DNA of 64,000 bases from Malacoraja senta (Eukaryota), in NCBI GenBank assembly GCA_038087875.1, contig CM075993.1, positions 2,172,001 through 2,236,000 on the forward strand. The letters run 5' to 3'. A model generated the notes under the pieces. That model was not told the origin of the DNA and searched no databases. It saw only the letters and a program-made list of their open reading frames with translations. This document shows positions 4,239 to 62,800 of this stretch, piece by piece. Positions within the stretch are counted from its first letter, which is position 1, and the number at the start of each line of letters is the position of its first letter. The translations under genes and the position numbers were made by a program.

Positions 4239-4337
4239 CTAAACGATCATTTACAGAGGCCAATTAGCGCACAAACCTGAACGACTTAGGGATGTGGGAG
4301 GAAAACAGAGGGAACCCCACGGGGTCACAGTGAGAAT

Positions 4338-8370: not shown

Positions 8371-10749
8371 AGAAATACAGCACGGAAACGCACTTCGGCC
8401 CACTACGTCCGCACCGACCAGCGATCCCCGCACACTAACACTATCCTACACACACGAGGGACAATTTACTTTTCATACCAAGCCTACATACCTGTGCATC
8501 TTTGGAGTGTGGGAGGAAACCGAAGATCTCGGCGAAAACCCACGCAGGTCACGGGGAGAACGTGCAAACTCCGTACAGACAGCACCCGTAGTCGGGATCA
8601 AACCTGGGTCTCTGAAGCTGCAAGTGCTGTAAGGCTGCGCCACTGTGGCCGCCCTTATAAAAAACTAAACGAAACTCAGGCAGCATGGTGGCGTAGCGGT
8701 AGAGTTGCTGCCCGAGTTTAATTCACTTCATCATTGTCACATATACTGACTATCTCGGCTTCAGCACCATTGATGCAGACCTTGTTAGCTCTGCCACGCT
8801 TTTCTACAGAGAAACCTATTCTACAAACAAGCATCTATTCCACAGTGCTGAACTGTGTAAGAAAGAACTGCAGATGCTGGAAAAATAGACAAAAATGCTG
8901 GAGGAACTCAGCGGGTGAGGCAGCATCTATGGAGCGACGTTTCGGGTCGAGACGTGAGGGCGATGGTGAAGAAGGGTCTCGACCCGAAACGTCGCCTGTT
9001 CCTTCTCTCAATAGACAATAGGTGCAGGAGTAGGCCATTCAGCCCTTCGAGCCAGCACCGCCATTCAATGTGATCATGGCTGATCATCCCCAATCAGTAC
9101 CCCGTTCCTGCCTTCTCCCCATATCCCCTGACTCCGCTATTTTTAAGAGCCCCATCTGGCTCTCTCTTGAAAGTATCAAAGATGCTCCATAGACGCTGCC
9201 TCACCAGCTGAGTTCCTCCAGCATTTTTGTCTACCTACAGTGCTGAGCTATCTACCTCTTTGATGACCCTCGGACTATCCTTGAAGGGACTTTGCTGGCT
9301 TTACCTTGCACTAAACATTATTCCCTTATTATGTATCTATGAACACTGTGAACAGGGCGACTGTAATCATGTATTATCACTCCACTGAGACACACAACTA
9401 AAGCTTTTCCCTGTACCTCGCTACACGTGACAATAAACTAAACTGAACAGGGAGAGGCAAGAACAGCAATTAAAGGGTTAAAGAAGCAAATCTGAGGTTT
9501 GCGATCAGTTGTATTTCTGGCAAGGCCTTCCCTTCAGCTTGGAAGAAAACAGGATATTTCTTTGTATTGCAGTAACAGAAATAGCAATCACTTTAATCCT
9601 TTATCTGTGATGCCAACCCCTCTGAACTAACCACGCTCTGAAATAATTCATTAGACTGCTTTGTTAGTTCTATTGAAGGGACTACCAGATGGTATGTATT
9701 TGAACAGGAGCCAAGAGTGGGAGTTAGCAAGAACCTGTTTAATAATTGTCTGTGCGCTAACTACTATAATTTCCATACAAATTCATCCATATTGAGAAGT
9801 ATAATTTGCTGTTTGTTCACAAATATCCTCTCACTAAAAAAAAAACCACCCTCCAGTTTAATAACATTGAGAGTGTTTAGTTCTGGCTATTAAGCTGGCA
9901 CAAAGGAATTCCCAATTCAATTTTTGTATTATTAAATTTGTTTTTCTGTTCTACAAGAAATGATAGCACTATTTTTTTCAGCAAATTCAACTGCACCATT
10001 TGGCCATTAAGGATAATTAAATTCCTTAGAGAACCCAAGAAAGAAATTGAAATTGAAAACTATTCCTCTTTTGAGATTATCAGCCTTTTAAACGCCTGTT
10101 ATGGAATCAGCGAAACATTGTTCTCTGATCTCAAAACACTTTGCATGCCATTTTTTATCTCTGTTAGACGCACATATTCCAATCCCAATTCAGAATTTTA
10201 CAAAAGGACTGGCTTTGTGAAATGTGTCTTCATTTTCTTCTTTTTTTAAATCTGCTTTTAAAATTAAAAGCAAAATGGCATAATCTTATCCGTGGCAAAG
10301 CAATGGACAATAGAATTGCTGGTACTATAATCCTAAACTCTCCAAGATTAGAAGGCAGTGGAGGCCAAGTCAATGGATATTTTTAAGGCAGAGATAGCTA
10401 AATTCTTGATCAGTATGGGTGTCAGAGGTTACGGGGAGAAGGCAGGGGGATGGGAGGGAAAGATACATCAGCCTTGATTGAATGCAGGAGTAGACTTGAT
10501 GGGCTGAATGGCTTACAATCACATGGCTTCCAATGAAGTGTTATATTTTACTTCGGAGTCACGTGAGTGACTACGTGAAGAACCCCGCCAGTGCGCCTGC
10601 GCGTCATTACGTCAGACGCCTTGTCGCAAACGGACGCTCTGCTCCTCTAATGGATTTGTAGTTTTTTAACTACAAGGTAAGTAAAAACTTTTTTCAGTAT
10701 TTTCAGGTCCGTTTACTGTGGGTCTGTGGGGATTTTTTCCACAGACGCC

Positions 10750-11880
10750 ATGGAAAAAACGGGCAGGGGGAAGAGGCGAGCGACTCAGCCAACAGAAAGT
10801 CGGGAAAGTCGGGAGTCTGCGGTTAGCGACCAACCGCCTCTAACCCCGGTACAGTCGCCAGCGGTGAGCATAGCGACTGTGGACCTGGGGCAGTCAGCGC
10901 CTGTCGGGCGCAAGGCCAAGTTCAAATCTACACGGCGCACGGAGGAGTCCCAGGAAATGGAAATGGAAGAAGCTCCAGGGCTAGATACTGCTTTTAAGCG
11001 TATTGCCCAAATGGAAAGCCTGCAACATAGGTTGTTGGAGCGAAGCATACTCAGGTAAGAGTGCACTGAAATCTAAGCTGCTGAAAGCAGCTCAACAGCT
11101 CCTGGTACAGGGCTGATAGAATGCACCCTCAGGGATGAGGAGCGTGCCACAGGTCATGAGATTTCAGACCCCGACTCTGACGGTGAGGCTGTACAAGGCG
11201 AAGAACGGCAGCTGCCAGATTTTCCATCCCTGGCAGTACGATTCACTGCCCCGTCAGGGTCAGGAGAGCCATTAGGCGAAGAATTGGCCTCCCTAATAAA
11301 TTACTTGGTTTCCCATCAGCTGGAACAGCAGGAGATGGATGAGAATGCAAGAAAATATGAGTTGAGTATGAGAACTCAAGAATTGAAATTGCAGAGAATA
11401 TTAAAGCTGCTGGGTTCTGGAATAACTGCTTTTGCCAGAATAGCGGATAAAAGCCAAGAGATGACGGAGTTGCATCATGAAGCACTGGGGTTGCTATGCA
11501 GCACCCACTTCGAGATCAATTGTCTCAGGAAAGGTGCTATACGGCCTACTATGAATCCGAAATTCGCAGCACTCTGCAAACCAAGTAATGTACAATTACC
11601 CAACTTACTCTTTGGAGAGGATCTCGGGAGTTGGAAGATGAAGCGAAAACAGGATTGATGAAAACATCAATGGTTGTAAAGTCTGTAAAGAGGAAGTATC
11701 CTTTCAGATGTCATACGGATCCTGGACCAGGACCAAGTCGCTCATTAACGCAGGGACGTAGCTGGCGGCCTGCAGCGGGAGCAAGAACCAGTGGGGGTGC
11801 TTCCGGGAGAATCCAGGGATCTCAGAGTACTCAAATGACTCAAGAGGTAGGTGGACCTGGTTCTCATGGGAACATACTAT
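10750..11880 (+). pseudogene. DIRS gag-like ORF1 (disrupted)
   Basis: Kozak-context ATG (gccATGG) at 10750. Fragments 10750-11058, 11284-11658 (FEINCLRKGAIRP...LLFGEDL) and 11631 onward are broken by stops and frameshifts. The end is approximate. Confidence 0.7.
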
Positions 11881-11889
11881 CAGGATTAA

Positions 11890-13735
11890 GTCCAAAAGTT
11901 GGAGGCAGATTACGTCTCTTCTATAACAACTGGAAGAAGATTACTTCAGATCCGGTCATTCTGAATAGTATACAAGGATTTTGAATTGAATTCAATCCAA
12001 ATTATGATTTGCCTGTCCAGCATGTTCCTAGCAGAACTCTCCACTTTGCACAAAAAGAAGTGATGGAGGTTCAAGCTGCGCTTCAAACCCTATATATAAA
12101 AGGTGTTATTGAAGAATCAGTCTACCAAATTCACCAATTTGTGTCAAATATATTCCCTCGATCAAAAAAGGGATGTAGGATTATTATAGACTTGACAAGT
12201 CTGAATCCTTTTGTTCAAGTTAGACATTTTAAAATGGAGACATTTGTGACTGCCAAACAACTTATCTCAGAAGCATGTTTTATGGCAGCTATAGATTTAA
12301 AAGATGTATATTATTCAGTGTCTGTTCACTTGGAAGATATGAAGTATCTTAAATTTACATGGATGAACCAGTTAGGGCAGTTCAAAGCTCTGCCTAATGG
12401 GTTAACGTCCGCTCCCAGAATATTCACAAAATTGTTAAAATCAATTCTGGGGTTGCTGAGAAGCCAGGGGCATGTACTAATGGCATACTTGGATGATGTC
12501 CTGATTATAGGAAGGACAAAACAGTCAACAGAAGCATCTGTTGCAGTTGTGAAATCAACTTTTGATAGTTTGGGGTTTCTAAATTCATCCAAAGAAATCA
12601 AGGTTAACACCATGTACCTCGATTGATTATTTGGGGTTCACAATTGATTCAGTTCAAATGAAAATTACTTTGCCCAGTGAAAAAAGGGTGGAGTTGATTA
12701 AAGATTGCAGTAATCTGTTAAACGAGCAAAAACCCTTAATCAGACAGGTGGCTCGAGTACTGGGAAAATGAGTAGATTCCCAGCAGTCCAGTACGGACCA
12801 TTACATTATCAACAGCTGCAGAGAGTTAAACAACAGGCACTGAGAATGAATGCTGGTCATTTTGATAGAACCATGCAACTAACAACAAATGCTGTTTCTG
12901 ATCTGCAGTGGTGGATTCTACGTCTCAAGCAGTTCTGGCAAAGTGCTGATTGAACAACCTTCCATGATATTACAAACTGATGCCAGTGCACTAGGATGGG
13001 GTGCAACTGACTTAACATCTAGCTGCGGAGGCAGATGGAATCAGGAAGAGTCATTGTTACTGCAGACATGGGGAATTAACTATTTGGAGCTTTTAGGATG
13101 TTTCTATGGACTCCAAGCTTATTGTTCTAACATAACTAAAAGGCATGTTCAAGTTCAAATTGATAAACACAACAGCAGTTGCCTATATTAATGATATGGG
13201 TGGAATTAAGTAGGTGTCATGTGACAAAATGGCTAATCAACTTTGGTCTTGGTGTATTGAAAAGAACATTTGGATTTCAGCTATCTATCTACCAGGTAGA
13301 ATGAACACGATAGCAGACACCAGGTCACGAAAGTTCCATGATAATAAAGAATGGATGTTGAATCGAGAGGTATTCAATGATATAGTAATCAGATTTGGAA
13401 TGCCCGACATCGACTTGAATCATCAGCTATCGAGATATGTCTCATGGAAACCAGATCCAGGAGCAGTGGCGATTGATGCTTTCTCGCTACATTGGGGTCA
13501 TACGTTTTCATATATATTTCCACCTTTCTGCCTCATAATCCAATGTTTGCTTAAAATCAGGCAAGATGCTGCTTCAGGGGTATTGGTAGTACCAGATTGG
13601 CCTACACAGCCATGGTATCCGTTGATATTAGAATTAACAACACAAATGTTGATGAAAGTCCCAAAAAAGGGTAACTTATTGCTGCACCCTGTAACAGGGG
13701 AACAACATCCATTATATGATCTTTGGATTTGTTGA
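11890..13735 (+). pseudogene. DIRS pol: reverse transcriptase, RNase H and adenine-methyltransferase-like domain (disrupted)
   Basis: VGGRLRLFYNNWKKITSDPVILNSIQGF; RT motifs IDLKDVY, LPNGLTSAPRIFTK, YLDD; RNase H motifs LQTDASALGWG, INYLEL; MT-like segment WMLNREVF...DAFSLHW...YIFPPF...VVPDWPTQPWY. Multiple frameshifts. Confidence 0.93.
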
Positions 13736-13759
13736 TTTGCAGGTTTTAAGAAGGCCTTT

Positions 13760-14716
13760 TCTGGGGCGAGGACTGTCTGAGCGTACTGTGGACATGCTTA
13801 CGGCAGCCTGAAGGAAGAGCACTCAAAAACAGTACCTTTCTTATATTAAGAAATGGGAAGAGTTCTGTGTACAAAAGAATGTGCAATATAGTACTGCAGA
13901 TATTTCAAATGTTTAGAATTTCTGTCAAAACTTTATTATGATGATGGTCTGAGTTGTAGTGCAATTAATGCAGCAAGAAGTGCATTGTCCTCATATTTGG
14001 TTCTGGATTGAGAAAGAAACCCAATTGGGTCATACCCAATTGTTTCCAGACTAATGAAAGGAATCTTTAATTCCAAACCACCGAAACCTAGGTACATGAC
14101 AATCTGGGATGTAAGTGTGGTACTGAAACTACTTCGTGAATGGTCATCAAGTGTGTCTTTACCTTTGGCCAAGCTCAGCATGAAAGTATTCATGCTTATG
14201 GCATGAGTGACAGCACAACGAGTGCAAACACTTGGAAAATTACAAATAGACAGTATGGAAGTAACTGAAGACAAGGTTACATTCTATATCTATGACCTAC
14301 TAAAGCAAATTAGGCCAGGTGTGACAGGATTTAATATTATGCTAGCAGCATATCCAAATGATCCTTGTCTCTGTGTTAAGACATATTTGTTACAATACAT
14401 TGAGGTCACAAAGAATTTGAGAAATACGGAAACTGGGTTGTTGATCACACACAAGAAACCACACAAGAGAGTTTCAATACAGACTATTTCCAGATGGATA
14501 AAAGAAGTCTTAACAGCTGCTGGTATTAACACTTATGTTTTTACGTCTCACTCGACTAGGGCAGCAGAAACGTCAGCGGCCAGGGCAAAAGACGTCCCCG
14601 TCGACCATATCCTCGCAGCCGCAGGGTGGTCCAATGAGTTGATGTTTCAACATTTTTACCATCGGCCTATTGTTAATGCGGGATTGTTTGCAGAAACTAT
14701 TTTAAGTTCTGTGTAA
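13760..14716 (+). pseudogene. DIRS tyrosine recombinase (disrupted N-terminus, C-terminal catalytic domain open)
   Basis: GLSERTVDML...STQKQY...RLMKGIFNSKPPKPRY..WDV; catalytic R in TAQRVQTL, HSTR motif, AAGW, and nucleophile Y in FQHFY. Confidence 0.93.
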
Positions 14717-27834: not shown

Positions 27835-28122
27835 TAGATAGACACAAAATGTTGGAGTAACTCAGCGGGACAGGCAGCATCTCTAGAGAGAAGGAAAGGG
27901 TGACGTTTCGGGTTGAGACCTGTCTTCAGACTGTCAGGGGAGAGGGAGTCTAGAGATATGGAACGGTAAGGTGTGAAAACGAAACTCTCAGTCTGAAGAA
28001 GGGTCTCGATCCGAAACGTTACCTATTCCTTCTCTCCAGAGTGCTGCCTGTCCCGCTGAGTTACTTCAGCCTTTTGCGTTTATCTTCGATATAGACCAGC
28101 ATCTGCAGTTCCTTCCTACACA
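27835..28122. mobile_element. Foldback (inverted pLTR pair) Penelope-derived element, representative copy
   Basis: gacacaaaatgttggagtaactcagcgggacaggcagc...cttcagac with its reverse complement downstream. Similar copies near 118-210, 1868-1984, 8853-9237, 20812-21008, 22267-22420, 32838-33120, 35831-35997, 37388-37585, 38097-38460, 54010-54185, 57825-58037, 58682-59063, 60234-60407, 61191-61337, 63805-63930. Confidence 0.85.
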
Positions 28123-34627: not shown

Positions 34628-35066
34628 GTTGCTTAAGAAAGAACTGCAAAATGCTGGAAAAATCGAAGGTAGACAGAAATGCTAGAGAAACTCAGTGGGT
34701 GAGGCAGCATCTATGGAGTGAAGGAATAGGTGACGTTTAGGGTCGAGACCCTTCCGGGTCTCGACCCACCTCATATTCCGCTTGGGCAGTTTGCAACCCA
34801 GCGGTATGAACATTGACTTCTCCAATTTCCAGTAGTCCTTATTGTCTCCTCCCCTTCTCAGCTCTCCCTCAGCCCTCTGGCTCCTCCTCTTACTTTCTTC
34901 TTCCTGCCCCCCCCCCCCCTCCCCCCCACATCAGTCTGAAGAAGGGTTTCGGCCCGAAACGTTGCCTATTTCCTTCGCTCCATAGATGCTGCCTCACCCG
35001 CTGAGTTTCTCCAGCATTTTTGTCTACCTTAGGTTTTCCAGCATCTGCAGTTCCTTCTTAAACAAC
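34628..35066 (+). mobile_element. Penelope-like element with inverted 5' pLTR, truncated endonuclease remnant and 3' pLTR
   Basis: Inverted arm 34628-~34755, HLIFRLG-like remnant ...PSGMNIDFSNFQ*, hammerhead motif at 34936 with a GGGU-UUCG-GCCC stem II. Confidence 0.85.
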
Positions 35067-38000
35067 GACTACATTTCAGAGACTACTTTGGTTGTAAACT
35101 ACTTTGGGACAGCTCACAGATCTTAAGAGATGCTTTATAAATGCAAGTCAATCTTTATTGCTTCCTTCACATCTGACCCATTTTCCACACTCAAAAGGAA
35201 TGGCTTTAAAAGCAGATGCTTGGCAGATCGCCATGGTGACGGCATCCACAATTATTGGGCCATCAAAAATCTTTTTGTTGTTTGTTGGCAAGAAAATAAG
35301 AATGCATTAGAGACCTGTGCCTGCTCGGCATTACTCGATGGGGATATGAAAAGGCAAAAAGATTTCATTGCTCAATCCTCAGATCACTATATTAACGCAT
35401 AGCTAAAAGATCAAACAGTGTTTTTGTCACACTGGCAAAACAAAAACTAAAAATCTCTTTTCTCATGTTGAATTGCTAGTGTTTGCTAAATCAAGTATTG
35501 CATGAATTATAGATACCCTACAAAGCCGTTCTAAAAATCTGTGCCGTATGCTTTAAAACATCAATTATTTTCCACAATAAACTAGATATCCAGCTAAAAT
35601 GAGAATTGCCTCTCCATGTCCTCCAGGGATGCTGCCTGACCTGCTGGGTTATTCCTGCACTTTTCATTTGTAAACCAGCATCCTCAGTTCCTTGTATCTC
35701 TAAACTCCGATTCCAAAGCTTAGTTATACGATATATGCTCTATTGGACCAAAAAGAGTAAAAAATAAATACAATTTCTCAATCCAGAATGCAGAACCATC
35801 CTGCAGCAACCAGAGAGCAGTCCTGAGCAGTAGTCTGAAGAATGGTTTTGACCCGAAACGTTACCAGTCTGAAGAAGGGTTTCGACCTGAAACTTTGCCT
35901 ATTTCCTTCGCTCCATAGATGCTGCCTCACCCGCTGAGTTTCTCCAGCATTTTTGTCTACCTTCGATTTTCCAGCATCTGCAGTTCCTTCTTGAACAGCA
36001 GCCCTGAATTACTATCTACCCGAGTGGTGATCCTCAGACTATCTTTGATCGGACTTTACTGGCTTTACCTTGCACTAAATGTTATTCCCTTATCATGTAT
36101 TTTTACACTGTGGACGGCTCGATTCCGGCTGGCTGGTTAGCACACAGCAAAAGCTTTTCACTGTACATCATGCACGTGACAATAAACTAAACAAAACTGA
36201 ACGATTTATACAACCTTCATTTCAATGTTTGTTGAGTCAGAAATGAGATGCCTTGTGTGCAAACACAAGCTACCAGAATCAGTTCATGATCCTAATGCCT
36301 CCCCAACACATAATCTCACCCTTGTTAATAGAACAAATAAATTTGATAAATGTCCTATAATCACACTGCGATGGAGAAATATTATACATAGAATGAGAAA
36401 GAGATGTGCTTGATTGCAGCCATTTGGAAGAGACCAGTGACAGAAGATACCTTTTTCTCATCCTCCTGAAAATTGGACCAGTAGCTCTAACCACAATGAT
36501 AATACCTTCAATCAACTGTTCCCAGCTTTCAAGGAAGCAATCCAATACGGACACAGGACCCAGAAGCGGATGCTTCATAACTGTGCAAATAAAATGATCC
36601 ACAATTTTTATCAGATCATTAGTGATAGGAGTAGAATTAGGCCATTCGGCCCATCAAGTCTACTCTGCCATTCAATCATGGCTGATTTATATCTCCCTCC
36701 TAACCCCATTTTCCTGCTTTCTCCCCATAACCTCTAACACCCGAACTAATCAAGAATGTATCCATCTCTGCCTTAAATATAATCACTGACTTGGCCTCCA
36801 GTCTTCTGCGGCAAAGAATTCCACAGATTCCCCACCCTCTGACTAAAGATATTCCTCCTCATCTCCTTCCCAAAAGAACATCCTTTAATTCTGAGGCTGC
36901 GACCTCTAGTCCTAGACTCTCCCACGAGTGGAAACATCCTCTCCACATCCACTCTATCCAAGCCTTTCACTATGCCCCCCCCCCCTCATTCTTCTAAACT
37001 CCAACGAATATAGGCCCAGTGCTGTCAAACGCTCACCATATGTTATTTTGCTATTAACAAACCCATATTGACGTTAGACAAGCCTTGAATCGTGAAGTGA
37101 TATCGATGATGCTCTTTGAAACTCATCCCAAATTCCACTATACAAGTCTCTTAACAGAAATTAGATCAACACCCAAGGGAACACCATACAAAATCGTGCA
37201 AAGTGGATGACTCAGAAGGATGTTGTTACAGCGACAGCCGTATAACTGATACCTGTCAAGCCATCATCTCATCTACCAGAGTTTCACATATCAGACCATA
37301 ATTAAATTTGACAGCTTGCTCATTAATGCCATTTTGTTGTTTGGAGGTTAGGTTTCCAATAACAGATTGACAGGCGTTTATTTCGAAGCAAAGATAGACA
37401 CAAAAAGCTGGAGTAACTCAGCGGGACAGGCAGCATTTCTGGAGCGAAGGAATGGGTGACGTTTTGGGTTGAGACCCTTCTTCAGACTGGTTAGGGATAA
37501 GGGAAACGAGAGAGATAGACGGTGATGTGGAGAGATAAAGAACAATGAATGAAAGATATGCAAAAAATGTAACGATGATAAAGGATTTATTTAGAAGCAA
37601 CTGAAGAATCTATTATCATTCTGTATTTATATTGTAATGTGAAAAATTGAAATGTACATCCATTCATCTTGATATGATCTACATTCACTATTATGTTAAT
37701 ATGCATCCAAATCCTTTATTAAAATAAGCCAGATTGCACTTAAGTTCTAATACATTTTATGGGGTGTCTTATTAATATAAATTAAACTTGCTACCATCTG
37801 GCCATTATTTAATTCCTTTGGAAACCAGTATAAATCAAACAGGTCATATTGAATTGTGCTGGATATTAATATTTAAATACATTTAATTATTAAAATACTG
37901 TTCAAACAAGTGAATTTCAGTGGGTTAAATATACAGCAGTCATCAGATGCAAGATGTGAAATTTGGAATCAAATGTTTCACAGTGCTTTACAGTTAAGGA

Positions 38001-39217
38001 AATTAAACGTAAAACTAAAACTTCATTCATCCAGTTTTAATCCAGACTCCTTCAGAGCACAGAAAAATCATAATAATCATCAATATTTAATAACAAGGAG
38101 CTGCAGATACTGGTTTACCAAACACAGACATAATGCTGGGAGTAATTCAGCTGGTCAGGCAGCATAGCTGGAGAACGTGGATAGGTGACGTTTTAGGTCG
38201 GGACCCTTCTTCAGACCTGCCGACCCAAAACACCACCTATCCAGCGGGTGCAGCAGCATCTATGGAGCGAAGGAAATAGGCAACGTTTCGGGCCGAAACG
38301 TTGCCCATTTCCTTCGCTCCATAGATGCTGCTGCACCCGCTGAGTTTCTCCAGCATTTTTGTGTACCTTCGATTTTCCAGCATCTGCAGTTCCTTCTTTA
38401 ACACCACCTACCCATGTTCTTGCTGCCTGACCCGCCGATTTACTCCAGTATTTTGTGTCTTACGATAATCACCAACTTATGCATCCTACAAAACTCCAAA
38501 AGGCAGACAACTAAAAAGACGCCACTCTACAGATACAATATAAAAGCAGAAGACGTTGGGAGCACTCAGCAGGGAAGCCAACTTGGGAAGCAGGGAAGCA
38601 CTCAGCAGGGAAGCCAGGTTTCTTCCTCCACAGGTGTTGCTGGGCCTGCTGGCTATTTCTAGCATTTCCTGGCTTTAGTTCAGATCTTCAGCAGTTGCAA
38701 TTAGTTTTATTTTAGTTTTGCAAATTAAAGACAGAAGCTAATCAACCTGCGGACCCGCACGTCTTCGGAATGTGGGAAGAAATCGGAGCACCTGGAGGAA
38801 ACCCACGTAGTCACGGGGGGGAACGTGCAAACTCCACACAGACAACATCCGAGGTCAGGATCGAACCCATATCTTCGGCGCTGTGAGGCAGCCGCTCTAC
38901 CAGCTGCGCCACTGATGTATCGTGGAATTCGTAAACCAGTATACTTCACTACATGATGGATACAAAAAGCTGGTCTATCTTCGGTTAAAGCCAGCAGTTC
39001 CTTCCTACATACTTCACTACATCCAGCATCTCCTGAACCTCTGCAGCGTGCTATAAATGGGGCTAGGAGAGGAGAGTGGGTGAAGTGTTTATAAATCACT
39101 AGTTATTTCTCTCTGAATGGACCACCCTGGTTGATGTACATATGAGAAATTTAAATGAATGGCAGCGACGTTCATGTCCTTGGTATTCTACATGCAATTA
39201 AAAAAATCTAATCCTTA

Positions 39218-42469: not shown

Positions 42470-42880
42470 TCTTGTTTACAGCCCAATAGTACGAACATTG
42501 AATTCTACAATTTTAGGCAGGTACCCCTCCCCTTTCCCCCCTCCCTCCCACCCATCTGGACTCGCACCTAACTCCTCCTCCATTCCTTCCTCTAGCTTCA
42601 CAATTCACAACTCTGCACTCCTTTTGTCTTGCCCCATGTCTTTTCATCTCTGGCCTTCGACCAGCCATCTTCCTATCAAAACCCCGCCTCACTTGTATCA
42701 ACCCATTATTTTCCAGGCTTTGTCCTGCCACCCCCTCCCCTCCCCCCAGAATCAGTCTGACAAAAAGTCCCGTCCCGCAACGTCACCTATCCATGTTCTC
42801 CAGAGATGCTGCCTGAACCTCGAGTTACTCCAGCACTTTGCGTCTTTTGTAAACCAGCATCTGCAGTTCCTCGTTTCTAC
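42470..42880 (+). mobile_element. Older Penelope-like 3' end
   Basis: LQPNSTNIEFYNFR endonuclease-end remnant, C-rich tract, and a degenerate pLTR (gtctgacaaaaagtcccgtcccgcaacgtcacc...cagcatctgcagttcc). Confidence 0.7.
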
Positions 42881-45872: not shown

Positions 45873-46045
45873 TAAAAGCAATTCATGATTTAGCACTGTT
45901 CAGTTTTTACATATACATGGACAAGGCAGCTGTTAAAACTGCTCGACTATGGCTTAGTTTGTCTTTTTGACACATTGGGAGTTCAGTACATGTTTGTGAT
46001 GCTGTGAAATTTCTCCTTGATAGGATTTCGAACACTAGAAGGAAC

Positions 46046-46352
46046 ATCGTAAATTGGTGGAGCAGCACCTCATATTTCGCTTGTGCAGTTTGCACCCCAG
46101 CGGTATGAACATTGACTTCTCCAATTTCAGGTAGTCCCTGCTTTCTCCTCCCCTTCTCAGCTCTCCCTCAGCCCACTGACTCCACCTCTCCCTTTCTTCT
46201 TCCCCCCACCCCCCTCACATCAGTCTGAAGAAGGGTCTCGACCCGAAACGTTGCCTATTTCCTTCGCTCCATAGATGCTGCCTCACTCGCTGAGTTTCTC
46301 CAGCATTTTTGTCTACCTTCGATTTTCCAGCATCTGCAGTTCCTTCTTAAAC
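46046..46352 (+). mobile_element. Penelope-like element 3' end: GIY-YIG endonuclease C-terminus plus pLTR
   Basis: 46048-46134 translates RKLVEQHLIFRLCSLHPSGMNIDFSNFR*, the typical PLE endonuclease end. A pyrimidine tract, the hammerhead-like motif and the family terminus ttcttaaaca follow, with agaaggaa duplicated on both flanks. Confidence 0.85.
46225..46252 (+). ncRNA. Minimal type-I hammerhead ribozyme motif in the PLE pLTR (representative copy)
   Basis: CUGAAGA-A-GGGU(CUCG)ACCC-GAAA-CG-UU: conserved core, stem II hairpin and palindromic ACGU stem III. Confidence 0.7.
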
Positions 46353-47540
46353 AGAAGGAAGGAACTGCTCTCTCCTGTCAACTGAAAGACCTCAAAATCC
46401 TTTCCAGCTTAATTTAAAAGAATGGCTTTGATTTTTCAATAACTAGATGTGGCAAAACCATGATCATAGCTCAGGCAAACAGGGAGAGTGAACTGGGACA
46501 TGGGTCCCATGGATATAAATGAGCAAGCGAGATGAGGATGGACAGTTAATTAATGTTCAACAGTGCACAAATCTAGACTCAAAGGAAACCAAGTTCAACA
46601 ATAAAGGATGCATAGTCAACAATAATCTGGGGTACTGACCCTTTAAGGATTTAAATTGGGATATTAAAATGTAATGCTCGAGCAGGGCAGAACTGCTGTG
46701 TCCATTTCTCAATCCTGTAGCTTTCCACAGACACCACGCTGCCAATATCAACATCTTCCAAACACTATTGTGAATGACAATGGCATTCACACAAAAGAAC
46801 ACTGTTGCAGTTTGGAGGTTTTGTTGAAATGCAAAAAGAGAAATAACATGCAGGTTTGCCCAAGAGAAAGAAAAACAGTCTGTAATTTTGAGCTTGAAAG
46901 CTGGTGCTTACATGAGGACTGCCTGGCTCAGTTGGAAAGGCAGCTAATCAGTTGCACAAAATGCCATAGAACTCATGCCTGTGTGATCCATTGTGTCCAC
47001 TGGTTACATTCTGAAAGAACTGTTAAGCCCCCTACTTTCAATGTTTTATTTTCCAATAATATTAATCCACTTTGCTTTTAAGTTTATTTTGAATTCTGTT
47101 TTCACCAAAAGGGTTTCATAACAGCATTCTCCAGAAATAAATCCCCAACCTCTACATTCTTTCACCTGCGATGACTTTAAACTTGCATCCTCTGGTACCC
47201 AACTTGCCAGTGAGTCTTCTCACTTTGCCTCGAGTGATTAGAAGCCCTCATAACCTTGCCAAATTTTAATTGAAACTGCCGTGTGTGCACAACCCTTGGG
47301 ATCGTCAGTCCGGAAATCCGTTCTTGACTCGCTGAAACCAAGCACGTCACAGAGCAGGGCACGGAAACAAGAGTATAAACTGTGCAGAGGGCATTGAGTA
47401 CTCAGAGCAAAGGTGCATCATTTGTTCCAATAAGAGTCAGGGAGGAGGTGATAGGCAAGAGGGAGCAGGGAACTACAGAAGGGAAATAGCAGAGGCATTA
47501 ATGGGCTGCATCACTGGAAGCTGAGCCAACTGAAAGTAAA

Positions 47541-48320
47541 CATGCAGGTACAGCAGGCAGTGAAGAAAGCTAATGGCATGTTGGCCTTCATAACGAGAGG
47601 ATTTGAGTATAGGAGTAAAGAGGTCCTTCTGCAGATAGACAAAAGTGCTGGAGAAACTCAGCGGGTGCAGCAGCATCTATGGAGCGAAGGAAATAGGCAA
47701 CATTTCGGGCCGAAACCCTTCTTCAGACTGCAGTTGCACAGGGCCCTGGTGAGACCACATCTGGAGTATTGTGTGCAGTTTTGATCTCCTAATTTGAGGA
47801 AGGACATCCTTGCTATTGAGGCAGTGCAGCATAGGTTCACAAGGTTAATCCCCGGGATGGTGGGACTGACATATGAGGAAAGATTGGAAATACTGGACTT
47901 GTATTCACTGGAATTTAGAAGGATGAGAGGGTATCTTATAGAAACGTATAAAATTATAAAAGGATTGGACAAGCTAGATGCAGGAAAAATGTTCCCAATG
48001 TTGGGGGAGTCCAGAACCAGGGGCCACAGTCTAAGAATAAAGGGAAGGCCATTTAAAACTGAGATGAGAAAAACAACTTTTTCACCCAGAGAGTTGTGAA
48101 TTTGTGGAATTCTCTGCCACAGAAGGCAGTAGAGTCCAATTCACTGGATGAATTTAAGAGAGAGTTAGATAGAGCTCTAGGGGTTAGCGGAATCAAGGGA
48201 TACGGGGAGAAGGCAGGCACAGGTTACTGTTTGCGGATGATCAGCCATGATCACAATGAATGGCGGTGCAGACTCGAAGGGCCAAATGGCCTCCTCCTGC
48301 ACCTATTTTCTATGTTTCGA
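47541..48320 (+). mobile_element. CR1-type (HER1-like) LINE 3' fragment interrupted by a PLE pLTR piece
   Basis: QVQQAVKKANGMLAFI...LVRPHLEYCVQF...RRMRGYLIETYKI...RTRGHSL...NLWNSLP. The PLE insert at ~47635-47727 is flanked by duplicated ctgcag. Further CR1 3' fragments at about 19900-20250(-), 36615-37045(-), 44605-44945(+), 54705-55205(-), 56137-56645(+), 59165-59520(-), 60760-61150(+). Confidence 0.88.
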
Positions 48321-48620
48321 TGTAACTGGTGTCCTGTTCCATTTTCTTAGAGCAAAATCAAAGAGGATATTATACTGTTCATATGGATAAATTCTTTACA
48401 ACCATTGTAAAAGCTGACTTAGCTTCCTTGGACAGCACCTTCTGAACCCAGCACCTCTGCCAGAGAGAAGGACAAGGGCAGCAAAAGCATGGAAACCCAT
48501 GCAAGCTACATATCTTCCTCACTTCGAGTTACACCACTGCTTCTCTACCGTGGCTGGGACAAAATCCTGGAACTCGTTCTCTAACCTCAAAGGGTCACAG
48601 CAGTTGAAGGATCGTGGTCC

Positions 48621-53583: not shown

Positions 53584-56500
53584 ATGTACGTTGATCAGAT
53601 TGTGTCAACACACATTTCACAAAACAAGTTAGAATGATGAGGCAGCAGAACCGGCTTGGACTCAGGGAAGTGTTAAAATGTCAACGATTATACAATTTTG
53701 TTTAAAGAGAAAGCGAGATTCATTATTTATTATTGGGTGTAAAAGTTGAAGCGAAATTCCAGCAAGTCTTGTTTAAAAGGTGTGATGACATAAAATTGTC
53801 AACACTTCTGTGCTCCAAAACAAAGAGGTTTACATTAAAGAAATTTGTGAGGCAAGTTGAATAATATTTGAGTACTAGACTATTATTTTGGTTTACATTT
53901 TTTAGTGAGACTTTACGGCTTATGTTCCACATCTCTCACCTAGATCCACTGTACACCTAGGGAAGTGATGGTTCATTATATACAAAGGGACCAGTTAAAT
54001 AAAAACAGATGAGGCCACATCTATGGAGCGAAGGAAATAGGCGACGTTTCGGGTCGAGACCCTTCGAAGGGTCTCGACCCGAAACGTCGCCTATTTCCTT
54101 CGCTCCATAGATTCTGCCTCACCCGCTGAGTTTCTCTTGCATTGTCTACTTTCGGTTTTCATGCATCTGCAGTTCCTTCTTAAACAGTTAAGAAAAAACA
54201 AATGGGTATTATTTCCAAAAGTAGTAATATTGATTACAAAGCACAGTAATCCTTTGAAATGCAGTTCTCTCATATATTGTGTCACTTCTTTATGTTCTCT
54301 TAAAAAAATCTATAATAGTTTAAAATGGTATTATTTAAACTTCACTGGGAGAAATTTCACTAAGCTAAAGACAGTTGTGTAAGCACAAATGATTGACAAG
54401 TACAGTATATATAAACTGGCATTCGTACAAGTACCTTCCATAATTACATGGGCACGTAGCAATTTTGAAGTGTCGTTAAATGGACAAACTTGGCAGCTAA
54501 TTTGTGCACATTGAGAATGTAGGAAGGCGCTTCAGTTCATGGGGCTTGGTCTGGTGAACTAAAAGGAAGCTGTCATCAGGCTGACACAGAGCCAGGGAAT
54601 GTCCGCAACTGAAGGGGATTCCTTAGAGAAACCATTGAATCTTACAGCACAGAAACCACCTCTTCTGGAGAAATCTTAAAATACATCTCGCAAATCTCAA
54701 AAGACCATAAGACACAGAAGCAACATTAGGTAATTTGTTCCATCAAGTCTGCTCCACCATTCAATCACTGGTGATCTATTTTTCCCTTTCAGCCCCATTC
54801 TCCTGCTTTTTCCCCCCATACCTTTTGACACCCTTACTAATCGAATCAGTCAATCTCCACTTTAAAAATACCCAATAACTTGGCTTTCGCAATCGTCTGT
54901 GGCAATGTATTCCACAGATTCACCGTCCTCTGGTTAATGAAATCCCTCCCCCCCCCTCATCCCCATTCTAAAGGTATGCCCGTTCTTTGATTCTGAAGCT
55001 GTGCCCTCTGGTCCTCGCCACATCCACTCTATCTGGGCCTTTCATTAGTCGGTAGGTTTCAATGAGATCCCCCATCTAAACTCCAGCAAGTGCAGGCCCA
55101 GAGTCATCGTCTCTTAACCCCGGGATCATTCTCGTCAACCTCTTCTGAACCCTCTCCAACATCAGCACATCCTTCCTCGGATATGGGGCCCAAAGCGGCT
55201 CACAATATCACCATTTATTACCATCTCAACATTACTTTGCGCTTTCGCTGTTTATATTGCTATCAAAAGAACCGATGTCCATAGTCTCTGTTTCCAAACA
55301 TTCTACGCTCCAAAGAATTTCTCCCACTTTTCCAAATAAGCAATATTTTCATGGGAGAGTTCGATTTACCTATTAGGACTAAAGGAATCAAAGGATATGG
55401 GGAGAAAGCAGGAACAGGGTACTGATTTTAGATGATCAGCCATGATAATATTGAATGGTGGTGCTGCCTCGAAGGCCTACTCCTGCACCTATATTTCTCA
55501 AAATTGTCATCACATGAAGACATGTAATCTGTAGTGCATTTATATTTTGTGCGAGAATGAATCAAAGACAATTTGCAAAAGACGAGATCAGAACATTTTT
55601 TTTTTTTTTTTTCAACTGGCCTGTCATAATCTGAAATGTATTGCGTGAAAGGGTGCAAGAAACAGATTCAAGAAAAACTACTTGAGGGGAATTGGAGAAA
55701 TAATGAAGTGGAAAAATAACATTGCTGAGGAAAAAGCAGAAACTAATTTTCACAGAATTGTGTTTTCTTCTGTACAATTCTACAGCTTCCCACAAAGTCG
55801 TCTATGCCCATTAAAGTTCAATAAAAGCCTCTCAACTTTCCTCCAACCCTTAATGTTCCAACAGAAATACTATTTCTCAACTGTCACCCTATAATTGTAA
55901 GTCCCCATATATTTTTTTTAAGACTAAGCCTGGAGATCTCTTAAGGCACCACCTGCAGATTTTGTGCTTTATTACAATTATGTTTCATGCTGGCAGAGTT
56001 TTGACCCTGTGGAGCAGAAGCAAGTTATTGAATGCCAAGATACTTGTTCACAAGGGAAACAATAGCTTTGTGGTTGCCAGTCACGTGAAATAATGACAGC
56101 GGCAGAAGTGTCAGCCCAAGCTGGGAATACATCTTTGACATGCTGTTGCAGTTGTATAAGACGCTGGTGAGGAAGCATTTTGAGCATTGTGTTCAGTTCT
56201 GGGCACCGTGTTACAGGAAAGATATTGTCAGGCTGGAAAGGGTACAGAGAAGATTTACGAGGATGTTGTCAAGACTAGAGGGTCCGAGCTGGAAGGAGAG
56301 GTTGAGTAGGCTGGGATTCTATTCCATGGAGCTCCGGAGGATGAGGGCAATCTTATAGAGGTGCATAAGATCGTGAGAGGAATAGATTGTATCAGTCTGA
56401 AGAAAGGAATCTGAGAGGTAACCTTTCACACAAAGGGTGGTGGATGTATGGAACAAGCTGCCACAGGAGGTAGTTGAGGCTGGGACTATCCCAATCCTTA

Positions 56501-58600: not shown

Positions 58601-59700
58601 TTATATTTACTCTGAGCCAGAAGTCAAAACGGATACCTCGTCTTTTAAAGTGTTCAAACGCATATAGTGATCTGGGTTTCTCAGTCTGAAGAAGGGTCTC
58701 GACCCGAAACATCACCTATTCCTTCGCTCCGTAGGTGCTGCCTCACCCGCTGAGTTTCTCCAGCATTTTTGTCTACCTGGGTTTCATCTACGTTGGCTGG
58801 ATTTGAATTTGGAAAAGTACAAATGCCTCTGTGTCAAAGATCGATACAAAATGCGGGAGTAACTCAGCAGGACAGGCAGCATCGCTGGAGAGAAGGAATG
58901 GGTAACGTTTCGGGTCGAGACCCTTCCGTGAGCCTGAAGAAGAGTCTCAAACCGAAATGTCACCCATTCCTTCTCTCCAGAGATGTTGCCTGTCCCATTG
59001 AGTTTCTCCAGCATTTGCGTCTATCTTTGGTTTAAACCAGCATCTGGAGTTCCTTCATACACATGCCATTGTGTCATGTAGCCTGCTCATTGCAAGACAT
59101 ATATATATTTCTAGCTTGAGCTAACAACAGGGGAGAAAAAAATATATATTATATGGTTATTTAATAGTCAGAGCCATACAGCATTGAAACAGGCCCTTCG
59201 GCCCAACTTGCCCACACTGACAAAACCATCTACACTATCTACACTAGTCCCACCTGCCTGCGTTTGGCCCATATCCCTCCAAACCTGTCATATTCATGTA
59301 CCTGATTATTTCTTAAATGTTGCAATAGACCCTTCCTCATCAACCTCCTCTGGCAGCTCGTTCCATACACCCATCACACTGTGTGAAAAGGTACCCCTCA
59401 GATTCCTATTAAATCTTTCCCCCCTCATCTTTAACCTATGTCCTCTGGTTCTCAATTCCCTTACTCTGGGCAAGAGACTCTGTGCGTCTTCCTGATCTAT
59501 TCCTCACATGATTTTATACACTGTACACTAATTTCAAATAGTTTTGAAATTTAAACAAATTCACGAGTAATTACACATTAAGTATCCATATGAAAATAAA
59601 GGAGTTGTAACAATGTTTGAATTTTAGAGAAATGTTAGAAGGGAGCACGTCACATCTAGAGTGCTTTCACATTCACTTGGGATATAGCTGCTGTACTCAC

Positions 59701-59820: not shown

Positions 59821-62800
59821 CTGGAAAACAAAATGCAGTTGTTTTTAAAACTTCGCATTGCCTCGAGAAAGCAACCAACATTATCAAAGAATACTCACAT
59901 CTTGGTCATTCTCTCTTCTCCCCTCTCTCATGGGGAAGAGATACAAATTCTTCAAAGCACGTACCACTAGACACAAGAACAGCTTTTTTCCTGCCACAAT
60001 CAGACTCTTGAATAGACTTCTATTCTACCAAAGATGAATTCCTGATCTTCCCAATCTACCTCATTGCTGGCCTTGCATTAAAAAAAAATCTGCATTGTCA
60101 CTATAGAGGTTACACTATATTATGCATTTTATATCTTTTCCTCTCTTGTACTACCTTGATCATAAGGTCATATGTGATAGGAGTAGAATTAGGCCATTCG
60201 GCCCATCAAGTCTACTCCACCATTCAATCATGGCTAGACAAAAATGCTGGAGAAACTCTGTGGGCGAGGCAGCATCTATGGAGAGAAGGAATAGGCGACG
60301 TTTTGGGTCGAGACCCTTCTTCAGACTTCTTCAAACTCAACTGCTGAGTTTCTCCAGCATTTTTGTCTACTTTCGATTTTTCCAGCATCTGCAGTTCTTT
60401 CTTAAACATTCAATCATGGGTGATCTATCTGCACCTCAAGCCCATTCTCCCGCCTTCGCCCCATAACCTCTGACACATGAACTAATCAAAAAATGATGTA
60501 CTTACGCAGCGTACAATTTACACAGACAGGATGCAAACAATGTTTTTAACTACATTATGGCCCGTGACAATTATAAACTATTATCCCAACACTGATTCCA
60601 AGTAAGTTGAGAGCTTTCTTGTTTTCCTATCTCAACGCTCCATTGTCAAAAAGAGTTCCCTGCTCCTCCATTCTCCATTCATATTCATCTCTCCAATCGG
60701 TGGCTGAAAATTAAATCGCACACAAATTCAGTATTGGTAGATTTTGTTTTTTTTGTCTTACAAGAGGTTTACAAGAATGATCCCAGGAATGAGTAGGTAC
60801 GGCACTGGGCCTGTACTCACTGGAGTTTAGAAGAATGAAGGGGGAAAGTCTATGATTAGAGTTCATAGCCTCAGAATTAAAGGACGTTCTTTTAGAAAGG
60901 ATATGAGGAGAAATTTCTTTAGTCAGAGGGTGGTAAATCTGTGGAATATTTTGCGACAGAAGGCTATAGGGACCAAGTCAGTGGATATTTTTAAGGCAGA
61001 GATAGATAGATTTTTGATTAGTACAGGTGTCAGAGGTTATGGTGAGAAGGCAAGAGAATGTGGTTAGGAGGGAGAGATAGATCAGCCATGATTGAATGGC
61101 ATAGACTTGATGGGCTGAATGGCCTACTTCAACTCCTATCATTTATGACCTTATATGCATATCAAAGCCACTGATAATTCTCAAAATCAGTTTAAGAAGG
61201 AACTGCAGATGCTGGAAAATCGAAGGTAGACAAAAGTGCTGGAGAAACCCAGCGAGTGAGGCAGCCGAAACGTTGCCTATTTCCTTCGCTCCATAGATGC
61301 TGCCTCACCCGCTGAGTTTCTCCAACACTTTTGTTTATTCTCAAAATCAGACTGGTCCCAACAGGCTACCATTTCTGAAGATTAAAGTGTCATTAGACAA
61401 GCATGGAACAAAAAGAAACTCTGATCTCACTTTTCTTTATTTACACTTCTCTAAAATGTGGGACTTTGTGAACTTGAGAACCAAGATTCTTTTGACAGGT
61501 CTCAAGATGACACAAAGAGCACTAAAGGGGTGGTGAGATGAAAAGAGTTGTTATTTTTAGCGTGTCATTTTTATGTAGCTTCTTGCAAATAAATAGCAGG
61601 AAGAGCAAGGAACAACGATAACCGAGATTGTTTATTCCCCCTAAATGGAATGCAAGTCAAATCTTTGACAATGAACTGAGAAAAAAAATTAAGAAAAATA
61701 CAACAAAGAAATAATGGTATGATTAGTGAATGGTGATGAAGAAAGATTTAATACTCAGCATAGCAATGATACAACTGAAGTTTATTGTCTTGCTGGCCAC
61801 ACCAGAGACAGTGCATTTACTTCAAAGCTGACGAAGCAGTTCTAATGGTAAATGCGTGGCATCATTAAATTTACACGACTTTAGCGCAGTTGTGGTTAAT
61901 GTTGCATTGTTTGTGGGCAGAAACACAAGTGAGAACATGGAGCAAGAATTAAATATTGATTCTGGCCTTATTGAACATGACTCATAATTCATTTAATAGC
62001 TGCAGCTTTGTGAAATCATTTAATGAAACAAAAATCAATGGCACAGCTGGAAGAACCAGAGACCATGGTTCAATCCTGGCCTCGTGTGCTGTCTGTGTGG
62101 AGTTAGCACGTTCTACCAGTGACCGCCAGGTACTCCGGCGTCCTCCCACTTCCCAAAGACAAGCGGGTTTGTAGGTTAATTGTTACTTGTAGAGAGTGGA
62201 TGTGAAAGTGGAATCACATAGAACTGGAGTAAATGGGTGATGAAATGGTCGGCGAGGACTCAGTGGGACAAAAGTTCTATTTCCATGTTGTATCTTTCAA
62301 TCATTCATATAACACACTGCAGATAATTCTTTATAAAATATATAAAGGAATATTTAATGGCAGAGGAAAAATCTTACACATCAGTAATGGTTTATTTTTA
62401 ACTATTACTGGCTGATTAAAAGCTTTGAGTGTTCATTTGCATCAACAAATATGGATTAAGTGTTTTGTGTAGTTTAATAAACTTAAGTGGGGCAGTCAAT
62501 GGCGCAGCGGTAGAGTTGCTGCCTTACACCGCCATAGACTCGGGTTCGATCCTGACTAAGGGTGGTGTATGCACGGAGTTTGTATGTTCTCCCTGTGACC
62601 GTGTGGGTATTCTCCGAATGCTTCGGTTTCGTCCCACATTCCAAAGACGTGTAGGCTTGCAGGTTAATTGGCTTCTGTAAATTGTTCCTAGTGTGTATGA
62701 TAAATGCTAGTGGGGTTATGGCTGGTTGGAGGGCTGAAAGGCCTGTTTCCACGATGTATCTCTAAAGTTCCTGGTTCTGGTGACCAAGCACTCAAGAACT

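What the first reader, a model, noticed from the sequence alone, without database searches (positions are those of the whole stretch)
46046..46352. The window's commonest repeat is a Penelope-like end carrying a minimal hammerhead ribozyme core
Seen: CTGAAGA-A-GGGT(CTCG)ACCC-GAAAC-GT(C/T) recurs on both strands, about 20 copies including degenerate ones (plus strand: 121, 8968, 22358, 27993, 33026, 34936, 35835, 35869, 45128, 46225, 58686; minus strand: 20913, 27902, 37458, 38187, 47699, 57888, 60297, 63900). Stem II varies while staying paired (GGGU-UUCG-GCCC). Three copies (34628, 42470, 46046) are attached to a GIY-YIG endonuclease C-terminus. Established: PLE pLTRs carry minimal hammerheads with a palindromic stem III that cleave as dimers, and an extra A after A9 is known from the CChMVd viroid hammerhead. 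Inference: this genome holds a very large population of latent ribozyme motifs. Stem I is weak here (about 2 bp), so activity is uncertain.
Basis: partly seen in the sequence, partly recalled or inferred. Interest (0 to 1): 0.7.

Follow-up and report, generated by a model that had tools for sequence, protein, structure and literature searches.

The report
Penelope retrotransposon stubs with minimal hammerheads
The repeat is real but ordinary: it is the short end piece of a Penelope-type jumping gene, carrying an already described tiny self-cutting RNA motif that is broken or folded away in most copies.

Summary
Observation confirmed. All 19 listed positions are present. The family is the window's commonest repeat: 49 segments, 7.3% of bases. 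It is the pLTR-plus-tail end of an endonuclease-bearing, Neptune-like Penelope-like element (PLE) in a skate-like genome. The motif matches the published minimal hammerhead (min-HHR) consensus, including the extra base after A9 and the loop-less palindromic stem III (PMC4209133). Known PLE hallmarks are present: two 3' ends 35 nt apart, 13 head-to-head pairs and target-site duplications.

The 'latent ribozyme population' reading is weaker. Only 4 of 23 copies spanning the core are intact, and 13 of 18 broken ones are hit at the two CpGs. Helix I is 2 bp. No copy starts at the predicted cut, and RNA reads show no pile-up there. Core positions vary less than downstream ones (P=0.018), so the motif was selected in master elements.

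One unexplained feature: 17 of 24 copies that reach the core stop within about 10 nt upstream of it. This scan reported the same family type earlier in other cartilaginous-fish windows. New member of a known kind; low interest.

The parts
46033..46134 (+). Last ~33 codons and stop of a PLE GIY-YIG endonuclease (5'-truncated)
   Evidence: Translation; 70-76% identity to skate proteins and 52% to a whale shark PLE protein; longer homologs carry RT and GIY-YIG domains
46135..46220 (+). Pyrimidine-rich spacer between stop codon and hammerhead; differs between subfamilies
   Evidence: loose-end consensus in reads
46221..46224 (+). CAGT: 5' strand of helix I (only G and U pair) and the zone where most short copies begin
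   Evidence: read loose ends at 46219-46223
46225..46254 (+). Minimal type I hammerhead: CUGAAGA, extra A, 4-bp stem II with tetraloop, GAAA, palindromic CG, U, H17 (46252), 2-bp helix I; predicted cut after 46252
   Evidence: Matches the consensus in PMC4209133 Fig. S3; descriptor scan
46255..46318 (+). pLTR body down to the proximal 3' end (inferred first RT start site, about 46318)
   Evidence: 15 of 49 segments end here; read loose ends at 46318
46319..46353 (+). 35-nt optional tail ending at the distal 3' end (inferred second RT start site)
   Evidence: 26 of 49 segments end here; read loose ends at 46353 with AT-rich flanks
34629..35065 (.). Inverted tail arm (minus), endonuclease C-terminus (34767-34832) and intact hammerhead with tail (plus, C3 at 34936)
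42474..42880 (+). Older, decayed endonuclease-bearing copy with broken hammerhead
27840..28122 (.). Head-to-head insertion with 15-bp target duplication; intact motif at 27993 locked in a long hairpin
47635..47727 (-). Solo 93-bp copy with near-intact motif (U.G at 15.2/16.2), inserted into a CR1-like LINE frame with a 6-bp duplication
   Evidence: interrupted reading frame visible
58681..58774 (+). Solo 94-bp copy with 9-11-bp target duplication; palindrome broken at the CpG
8853..9236 (.). Head-to-head insertion with 10-bp target duplication, right arm split by a later ~170-bp insert
   Evidence: read from the sequence
38244..38399 (.). Head-to-head insertion, 15-bp target duplication, one tailed arm
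54012..54193 (.). Head-to-head insertion, 11-bp target duplication, one tailed arm
60236..60406 (.). Head-to-head insertion, 15-bp target duplication, one tailed arm
61191..61334 (.). Head-to-head insertion, 16-bp target duplication, one tailed arm
35832..35998 (+). The only direct tandem of two hammerhead cores (34-nt period); both cores broken

Best explanation
The repeat is the 3' end (pLTR plus tail) of an endonuclease-bearing, Neptune-like Penelope-like retrotransposon that amplified heavily in a skate-like genome. Its motif is the described PLE minimal type I hammerhead. Shown here: the anatomy (endonuclease end, spacer, min-HHR, two 3' ends 35 nt apart), target duplications of 6-16 bp, head-to-head pairs that mostly carry one tail, lower variation of the core across copies, and decay at CpGs. 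Inferred from the anole PLE studied in vitro: the endonuclease makes a staggered break in AT-rich DNA, and RT starts inside the RNA at one of two sites and copies through the uncleaved hammerhead. It usually stops just past it, giving 95-135-bp stubs. When both DNA ends are extended, one from each start site, a one-tailed palindrome results. The ribozyme mattered in the master elements, probably as a weak, protein-assisted dimer. In genomic copies it is a passenger that is mostly broken, isolated or folded away.
For: Consensus match. Endonuclease relatives in skates and sharks, with the CX2-5CxxC linker in 97 of 104 homologs that have the GIY-YIG motif. 41 of 49 segments end at one of two sites, and reads from four runs show the same two ends with heterogeneous AT-rich flanks. 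13 head-to-head pairs; five have 11-16-bp duplications around the whole unit, against 9 of 216 random placements reaching that score; a sixth was read by eye. Exactly one tailed arm in 10 of 13 pairs (6.5 expected, P=0.044). 0 of 49 segments start within about 5 nt of the cut. 4 of 23 intact; 13 of 18 broken at CpGs. In the anole element, RT starts internally at two sites, both strands are cut and extended, the ribozyme needs the protein, and it is not needed for insertion (PMC11167929).
Against: No RT-coding DNA of this family is in the window and no genome is held, so the autonomous partner and clade rest on homologs of a 33-codon fragment. The one-tail excess is marginal, and one of the 13 pairs is ambiguous. 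Arms of most old pairs are no more alike than other copies, so single-event origin is shown only for the six with duplications. Why copies stop just upstream of the core is not explained.
Confidence: 0.85

Rival explanations
1. One reading: the genome holds a large pool of latent ribozymes that cut host or element transcripts when two copies meet as a dimer.
For: 4 intact motifs in 64 kb, i.e. 17-160 per Mb if the window is typical. About 0.2% of RNA-seq reads in a related species lie on the stretch. Core conserved across copies. The four shown read-level variants in the motif (30-41% of reads in X23) are all compatible with the fold.
Against: 18 of 23 broken. Helix I is 2 bp, and the active dimer lies 14-27 kcal/mol above the best fold; the same measure gives 4-29 for 20 relatives, so it does not discriminate. 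Stem II probability is 0.03 or less in the three whole short copies folded. No pile-up of read starts or ends at the cut (only a pile-up above a fifth of local depth would be listed). Published min-HHRs cleave weakly even as dimers, and 8 of 9 Xenopus dimers did not cleave.
Confidence: 0.12
2. In this lineage the motif no longer cuts at all; it is kept in master elements as a cis signal (protein binding, RT stop or transcription start) while helix I has eroded.
For: The third helix I position is A opposite C in almost all copies. Relatives average 3.1 bp. Pyrimidine stretches after the cut and at the tail end can pair with the purine-rich core strand in predicted folds. 5' ends cluster at the motif's start.
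Against: 6 of 21 related families also have 2 bp or less, and published PLE motifs include 2-bp helices (Drosophila virilis, Culex). Variation falls at N7, loop, wobble and H17 positions, as catalysis predicts. The fold z-scores are not significant.
Confidence: 0.25
3. The short copies are a non-autonomous retrozyme spread through tandem or circular RNA whose ends are set by ribozyme cleavage.
For: Most copies lack coding sequence. Retrozymes derived from PLE pLTRs are reported in vertebrates, including one chondrichthyan. One 34-nt tandem of cores exists at 35832-35998.
Against: No tandem arrays of full units in the window; both cores of the single tandem are broken. Copy ends follow PLE tail sites, not the cut site. 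Three copies run on into endonuclease sequence.
Confidence: 0.06
4. Head-to-head units come from fold-back of one cDNA at short internal palindromes, not from two priming events.
For: Junctions of 22256/22352, 38242/38282 and 54010/54066 sit in short palindromes. The arms of the last two are 97% and 95% identical and share rare variants. Self-priming was proposed for rotifer PLEs.
Against: Several junctions are asymmetric, with arms of very different 5' extent (27597, 57815, 60226, 61187). In six pairs the arms end at the two different canonical sites (seven with the split arm at 8967-9236), which fold-back explains only with added processing. Arms of 34629/34910 carry different subfamily letters.
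Confidence: 0.35

Closest known systems
min-HHR of metazoan Penelope-like elements (Cervera & De la Pena 2014, PMC4209133; read main text parts 1-2 of 4 and supplement parts 1-2 of 3)
   Same: CUGANGAH, G10.1-C11.1, GAAA, palindromic 15.2/16.2 without loop, NUH. Located in the pLTR after the endonuclease. Mostly single dispersed copies, some in opposite-strand pairs.
   Different: No cartilaginous fish among the 56 motifs listed. Helix I here is 2 bp and stem II 4 bp, at the short end of the range. The upstream flank is C-rich rather than U-rich. Density may exceed the 4,000-9,000 per genome reported for coelacanth and Xenopus (extrapolated from one window).
Poseidon element PAc of Anolis carolinensis (Frangieh et al. 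2024, PMC11167929; read parts 1-2 of 4)
   Same: Two 3' ends defining a tail, AT-rich flanks, hammerhead about 100-130 nt upstream of the end, no RNA reads marking the cut.
   Different: Homologs here have the Cys linker of Neptune/Nematis, not Poseidon. No AUG at the start of stem II. The protein of this family has not been studied.
Inverted pLTR plus one-sided 30-40-bp tail of EN+ PLEs (Craig et al. 2021, PMC8557442; Arkhipova et al. 2013, PMC3846280; passages only)
   Same: Head-to-head 5'-truncated arms, tail usually on one end, duplications of about 8-16 bp, microhomology and palindromic junctions.
   Different: Here the stubs are only 95-290 bp and very dense, and their 5' ends cluster within about 10 nt upstream of C3.
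Non-LTR retrozymes (Li et al. 2026, bioRxiv 10.64898/2026.07.22.740005; read parts 1 and 3 of 5 plus passages; supplements closed)
   Same: Non-coding, derived from PLE pLTRs, carry type I hammerheads.
   Different: Defined by tandem units each with a full motif; not seen here.

Membership tests
PLE min-HHR | CUGANGA plus one extra base, then G10.1-C11.1 and stem II | tested here: met
   against the consensus
PLE min-HHR | GAAA, palindromic 15.2/16.2 with no loop 3, then UH | tested here: met
   C at 15.2 in 32 of 36, G at 16.2 in 30 of 36, H17 = C or U in 35 of 36
PLE min-HHR | Short helix I closing a type I fold | tested here: met
   First pair U-A or U.G in 19 of 22, second pair G-C in 21 of 21; third position unpaired. 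Within the published range but at its low end
PLE min-HHR | Location in the pLTR downstream of a PLE ORF | tested here: met
   About 90-100 nt after the endonuclease stop in the 46046 and 34767 copies, further in the 42474 copy
PLE min-HHR | Self-cleavage after H17 as a dimer | not testable with these tools
   Indirect signs are negative but weak: no copy boundary and no read pile-up at the cut
EN+ Penelope-like elements | C-terminal GIY-YIG endonuclease joined to a PLE RT in one ORF | tested here: inconclusive
   Only the last ~33 codons are in the window. The closest homologs with both domains are shark proteins
EN+ Penelope-like elements | Optional 30-40-bp tail (two 3' ends) | tested here: met
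   15 and 26 of 49 ends at two sites 35 nt apart; same in reads
EN+ Penelope-like elements | Inverted 5'-truncated copy at the 5' end, target duplication around the unit | tested here: met
   13 head-to-head pairs; 6 with duplications of 10-16 bp
Neptune/Nematis clades | CX2-5CxxC linker between RT and endonuclease | tested here: inconclusive
   Present in 97 of 104 homologs, but the linker region is not in the window; definition
Neptune/Nematis clades | RT phylogeny placing it in the clade | not tested
   No RT of this family in the window
Non-LTR retrozyme | Tandem units each with a complete hammerhead | tested here: not met
   One 34-nt tandem, both cores broken
Rfam hammerhead families | Score at or above the gathering threshold | tested here: not met
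   0 hits in 64 kb; does not bear on min-HHR membership, which was defined by a separate descriptor

The most novel reading that the evidence does not exclude
The sharp 5' boundary marks the true start of the element's RNA, a few bases before the hammerhead core, at an initiator-like TCAGT (consensus recalled). The commonest copy would then be a complete run-off cDNA from the internal RT start sites to the RNA's 5' end. Helix I would be short because the RNA offers only about three bases for it. One-tailed palindromes would record a dimeric enzyme priming each DNA end at a different start site. The genome would hold a very large natural record of PLE reaction intermediates that makes the still unproven in vivo cycle testable by counting. 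For: 17 of 24 copies stop there, whether short-ended (8) or long-ended (7), a 15-fold jump in stop rate. Against: 7 of 24 run on upstream, related families in other animals show looser 5' ends, and reads show no pile-up of starts there.
Probability: 0.25. Interest if true: 0.5.

Novelty: new member of a known kind. Interest (0 to 1): 0.22.

Why it matters
As a ribozyme find it adds a cartilaginous-fish family to a class described in 2014, so it matters little by itself. Two points have modest value. First, the family takes 7% of this window and about 0.2% of poly(A) RNA reads in a related species, so it may be one of the largest min-HHR populations in a vertebrate; that is an extrapolation from 64 kb. 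Second, thousands of short, duplication-bounded copies could test the PLE insertion model drawn from one in vitro study: two internal RT starts, both strands extended, uncleaved RNA as template. I found no paper on PLE hammerheads in skates or sharks in three searches; most subscription papers, including Lunse et al., are outside the library.

Tried and rejected
Whole-genome count: no genome is held, so all copy-number statements are extrapolations from 64 kb.

Rfam scan: 0 hits.

Search for elasmobranch copies in metagenomes: 121 loci matched the core pattern, but none matched the skate tail. They served only as distant relatives.

RNA holders: no listed holder was on record as RNA; raw reads added by species label were laid instead.

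Intron idea: the pyrimidine tract and AG just before the core resemble a splice acceptor, as in Drosophila virilis. No joint skipping 46131-46223 is among the 15 shown of 410, and duplication-bounded solo copies carry no shared upstream exon. Not supported, not excluded.

Length-limited truncation as cause of the 5' cluster: rejected, since short- and long-ended copies stop at the same place.

Dimer energy as a predictor of activity: does not separate this family from relatives.

Tail as the ORF start: a 26-codon AUG frame exists in the tail, but no homolog matched it.

Arm-to-arm identity as a test of one versus two templates: informative only for two young pairs.

Dropped rows: three high-scoring duplication calls (16676, 34494, 35832) are internal-repeat artefacts and were not counted. 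Of 8 first protein hits, four (P0001, P0002, P0003, P0007) are repeat-protein noise.

Lunse et al. could not be read; I saw only its citation in review passages. A search on twin priming or template switching with PLE hammerheads listed one unrelated review.

Full report
Verdict. That kind is described. The claim of a large latent ribozyme population is weaker than stated.

1. Observation. All 19 listed positions are present. Blastn with five reference copies gives 49 merged segments in 36 units covering 4,683 bp, 7.3% of the window. Two segments are one arm split by a later insert. Self-hit depth reaches 34 inside this family and 13 outside, so it is the commonest repeat. A strict min-HHR descriptor finds 8 sites against a mean of 0.01 in 100 dinucleotide shuffles. 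Rfam gives no hit. No whole genome is held.

2. Anatomy. The reference copy reads as follows. The last codons of a GIY-YIG endonuclease end with a stop at 46134, followed by a pyrimidine-rich spacer and CAGT. Then come CUGAAGA at 46225, an extra A, a 4-bp stem II with tetraloop, GAAA, CG, U and H17 at 46252. About 65 nt of body run to 46318, and a 35-nt extension to 46353. Endonuclease pieces also lie at 34767-34832 and, decayed, at 42474-42520. No other coding part of the family is in the window. The best real hits of the 31-residue fragment are named proteins of Rhinoraja, Leucoraja and Rhincodon; four of the eight hits were repeat-protein noise. The host is therefore inferred to be a skate-like fish. 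Longer homologs carry RT and GIY-YIG domains. Of 104 homologs with the GIY-YIG motif, 97 have the CX2-5CxxC linker that marks Neptune and Nematis (PMC8557442, passages).

3. The motif against the published class. Cervera and De la Pena define the min-HHR as lacking loop 3, with an extra base after A9, G10.1-C11.1, palindromic 15.2/16.2 and a short helix I. They report low cleavage even for dimers (PMC4209133, main text parts 1-2). Their Figure S3 lists 56 motifs, many with the same CUGAAGAA...GAAA-CG-UH pattern and some with a 2-bp helix I; none is from a cartilaginous fish (supplement parts 1-2). The window motif meets each sequence feature. Helix I is U-A or U.G in 19 of 22 copies and G-C in 21 of 21, then A opposite C. 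As an outside check, a core pattern found 121 metagenome loci from other organisms, forming 21 families. Their helix I, which the pattern did not constrain, averages 3.1 bp against 0.95 with shuffled partners (0 of 5,000), with both A-U/U-A and G-C/C-G forms; 6 of 21 have 2 bp or less. A tblastn found related endonuclease sequence in about 20 of those loci. A zebra shark gene model reads through its PLE stop region into a peptide that back-translates to the same core with a different N7 (P0014); that is inference from protein only.

4. Selection versus decay. Non-CpG core columns deviate in 11 of 211 cells against 246 of 1,996 downstream. A column permutation gives P=0.018; many downstream columns are equally conserved. 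In reads, the four shown variants inside the motif are the first loop base, the U-A to U.G change, H17 and position 1.1, each in 30-41% of X23 reads and each compatible with the fold; 40 of 129 variant rows were shown. Against this, core CpG positions deviate in 26 of 145 cells. Of 23 copies spanning C3 to H17, 4 are intact (27993, 34936, 46225, and 47726 with a U.G). One has all core letters but broken stems, and 18 are broken, 13 of them at the two CpG dinucleotides. This pattern fits selection in master elements and neutral decay in copies.

5. Copy ends. Of 49 segments, 15 end at the proximal site and 26 at the distal site. Three RNA runs show loose ends at 46353, two of them also at 46318, and the contig set at 46353 and 46309, with heterogeneous AT-rich flanks. 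This is the PLE tail, which in the anole element corresponds to two internal RT start sites (PMC11167929, parts 1-2). The three largest related families also have two 3' ends. No segment starts within about 5 nt of the predicted cut; two end in that range, one decayed and one at a tandem junction. The read tables list no place where many molecules begin or end. So the templates of these insertions were not cut by the ribozyme, as found in vitro for the anole element. The read test is weak: libraries were oligo-dT or single-cell, 89-95% of laid reads run on into unlike sequence, the runs are from a related species, and only a pile-up above a fifth of local depth would show.

6. Head-to-head pairs. 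Among neighbours within 200 bp, 13 are head-to-head, 3 tail-to-tail and 7 same-strand. Five pairs have 11-16-bp duplications around the whole unit, against 9 of 216 random placements reaching that score. A sixth, of 10 bp, was read. Exactly one arm is tailed in 10 of 13 pairs (6.5 expected, P=0.044). Inverted 5' copies with a one-sided tail are described for PLEs. I favour two priming events at a staggered break, one from each start site, because the anole protein cuts and extends both strands and is predicted to be a dimer. Fold-back of one cDNA remains a serious rival, since several junctions sit in short palindromes. Either way the palindrome buries the motif: in 27840-28122 stem II probability is 0.0.

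7. Can it cut? Not testable here. Predicted folds do not favour the hammerhead. Stem II probability is 0.03 or less in three whole short copies, where the purine-rich core strand pairs with pyrimidine stretches, and z-scores are not significant. The active dimer lies 14-27 kcal/mol above the best fold, but relatives give 4-29, so this does not discriminate. Eight of nine Xenopus dimers did not cleave (bioRxiv 10.64898/2026.07.22.740005, part 3). The most likely state is weak, protein-assisted activity in the element's own RNA and little or none in dispersed copies. If the window is typical, intact motifs number 17-160 per Mb.

8. What stays unexplained. Of 24 segments that reach the core, 17 stop within about 10 nt upstream of C3, and 7 run on as subfamily-specific pyrimidine-rich sequence (my reading). 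The stop rate is about 15 times that over the preceding 90 nt, and short- and long-ended copies stop at the same place. Reads show loose ends at 46219-46223, partly because subfamilies differ upstream. Candidates are an RNA start at an initiator-like TCAGT (consensus recalled), snap-back at the TCAG-T-CTGA palindrome, or release of RT at the edge of the bound RNA domain. I favour the first only slightly. In D. virilis the start lies well upstream of the hammerhead, with an intron between (PMC2377424, passages), and related families have looser 5' ends.

9. Novelty. Three searches listed no paper on PLE hammerheads in skates or sharks. One preprint reports retrozymes in an unnamed chondrichthyan; its supplements were closed and may bear on this. 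Lunse et al. could not be read. Earlier notes of this scan describe the same family type in other cartilaginous-fish windows; they are unchecked and add no support. Final: new member of a known kind, interest 0.22.

Noticed in passing
window 10681-14716: Decayed retrotransposon with an RT frame (11985-12623) and a tyrosine recombinase frame (14207-14713), DIRS/Ngaro-like (label recalled); Pfam RVT_1 and Phage_integrase hits.
   Followed up: partly
window 2910-4156: LINE fragment with RT hits and an ALKBH8_N-like match in its C-terminal part, Rex1/Babar-like by recall.
   Followed up: partly
window 4243-6843: About 2.6 kb of CA-rich tandem repeat giving long open frames in several phases.
   Followed up: no
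window 47455-48350: CR1-like LINE (label recalled) interrupted by a solo PLE stub with a 6-bp duplication that keeps the reading frame open.
   Followed up: partly
P0004, P0006, P0019, P0023: Gene models of host proteins (neuromedin-U receptor 1, a VKOR-family protein, and two named ray proteins) include PLE coding sequence; either mis-annotation or exonisation of this abundant repeat.
   Followed up: no
window 46130-46224: GT after the last endonuclease codons and AG just before the hammerhead could bound a 93-nt intron whose removal would keep CAGT before the core. The matching GT is absent in the 34767 copy, and no such joint is among the shown read joints.
   Followed up: partly
window 46228-46234 with 46341-46349: In two of three folded copies the purine-rich core strand pairs with the pyrimidine run at the distal tail end, closing the 134-nt unit and hiding the core; no covariation was tested.
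   Followed up: partly
run X23, joint 46148 to 46248: An opposite-strand joint carried by 294 reads in X23 but 4 in X24 and none in X21: one expressed inverted copy specific to a sample or tissue.
   Followed up: no
L008, L021, L052, L064: Distant relatives in other organisms also occur as opposite-strand pairs of the hammerhead end, so the pattern is general.
   Followed up: partly
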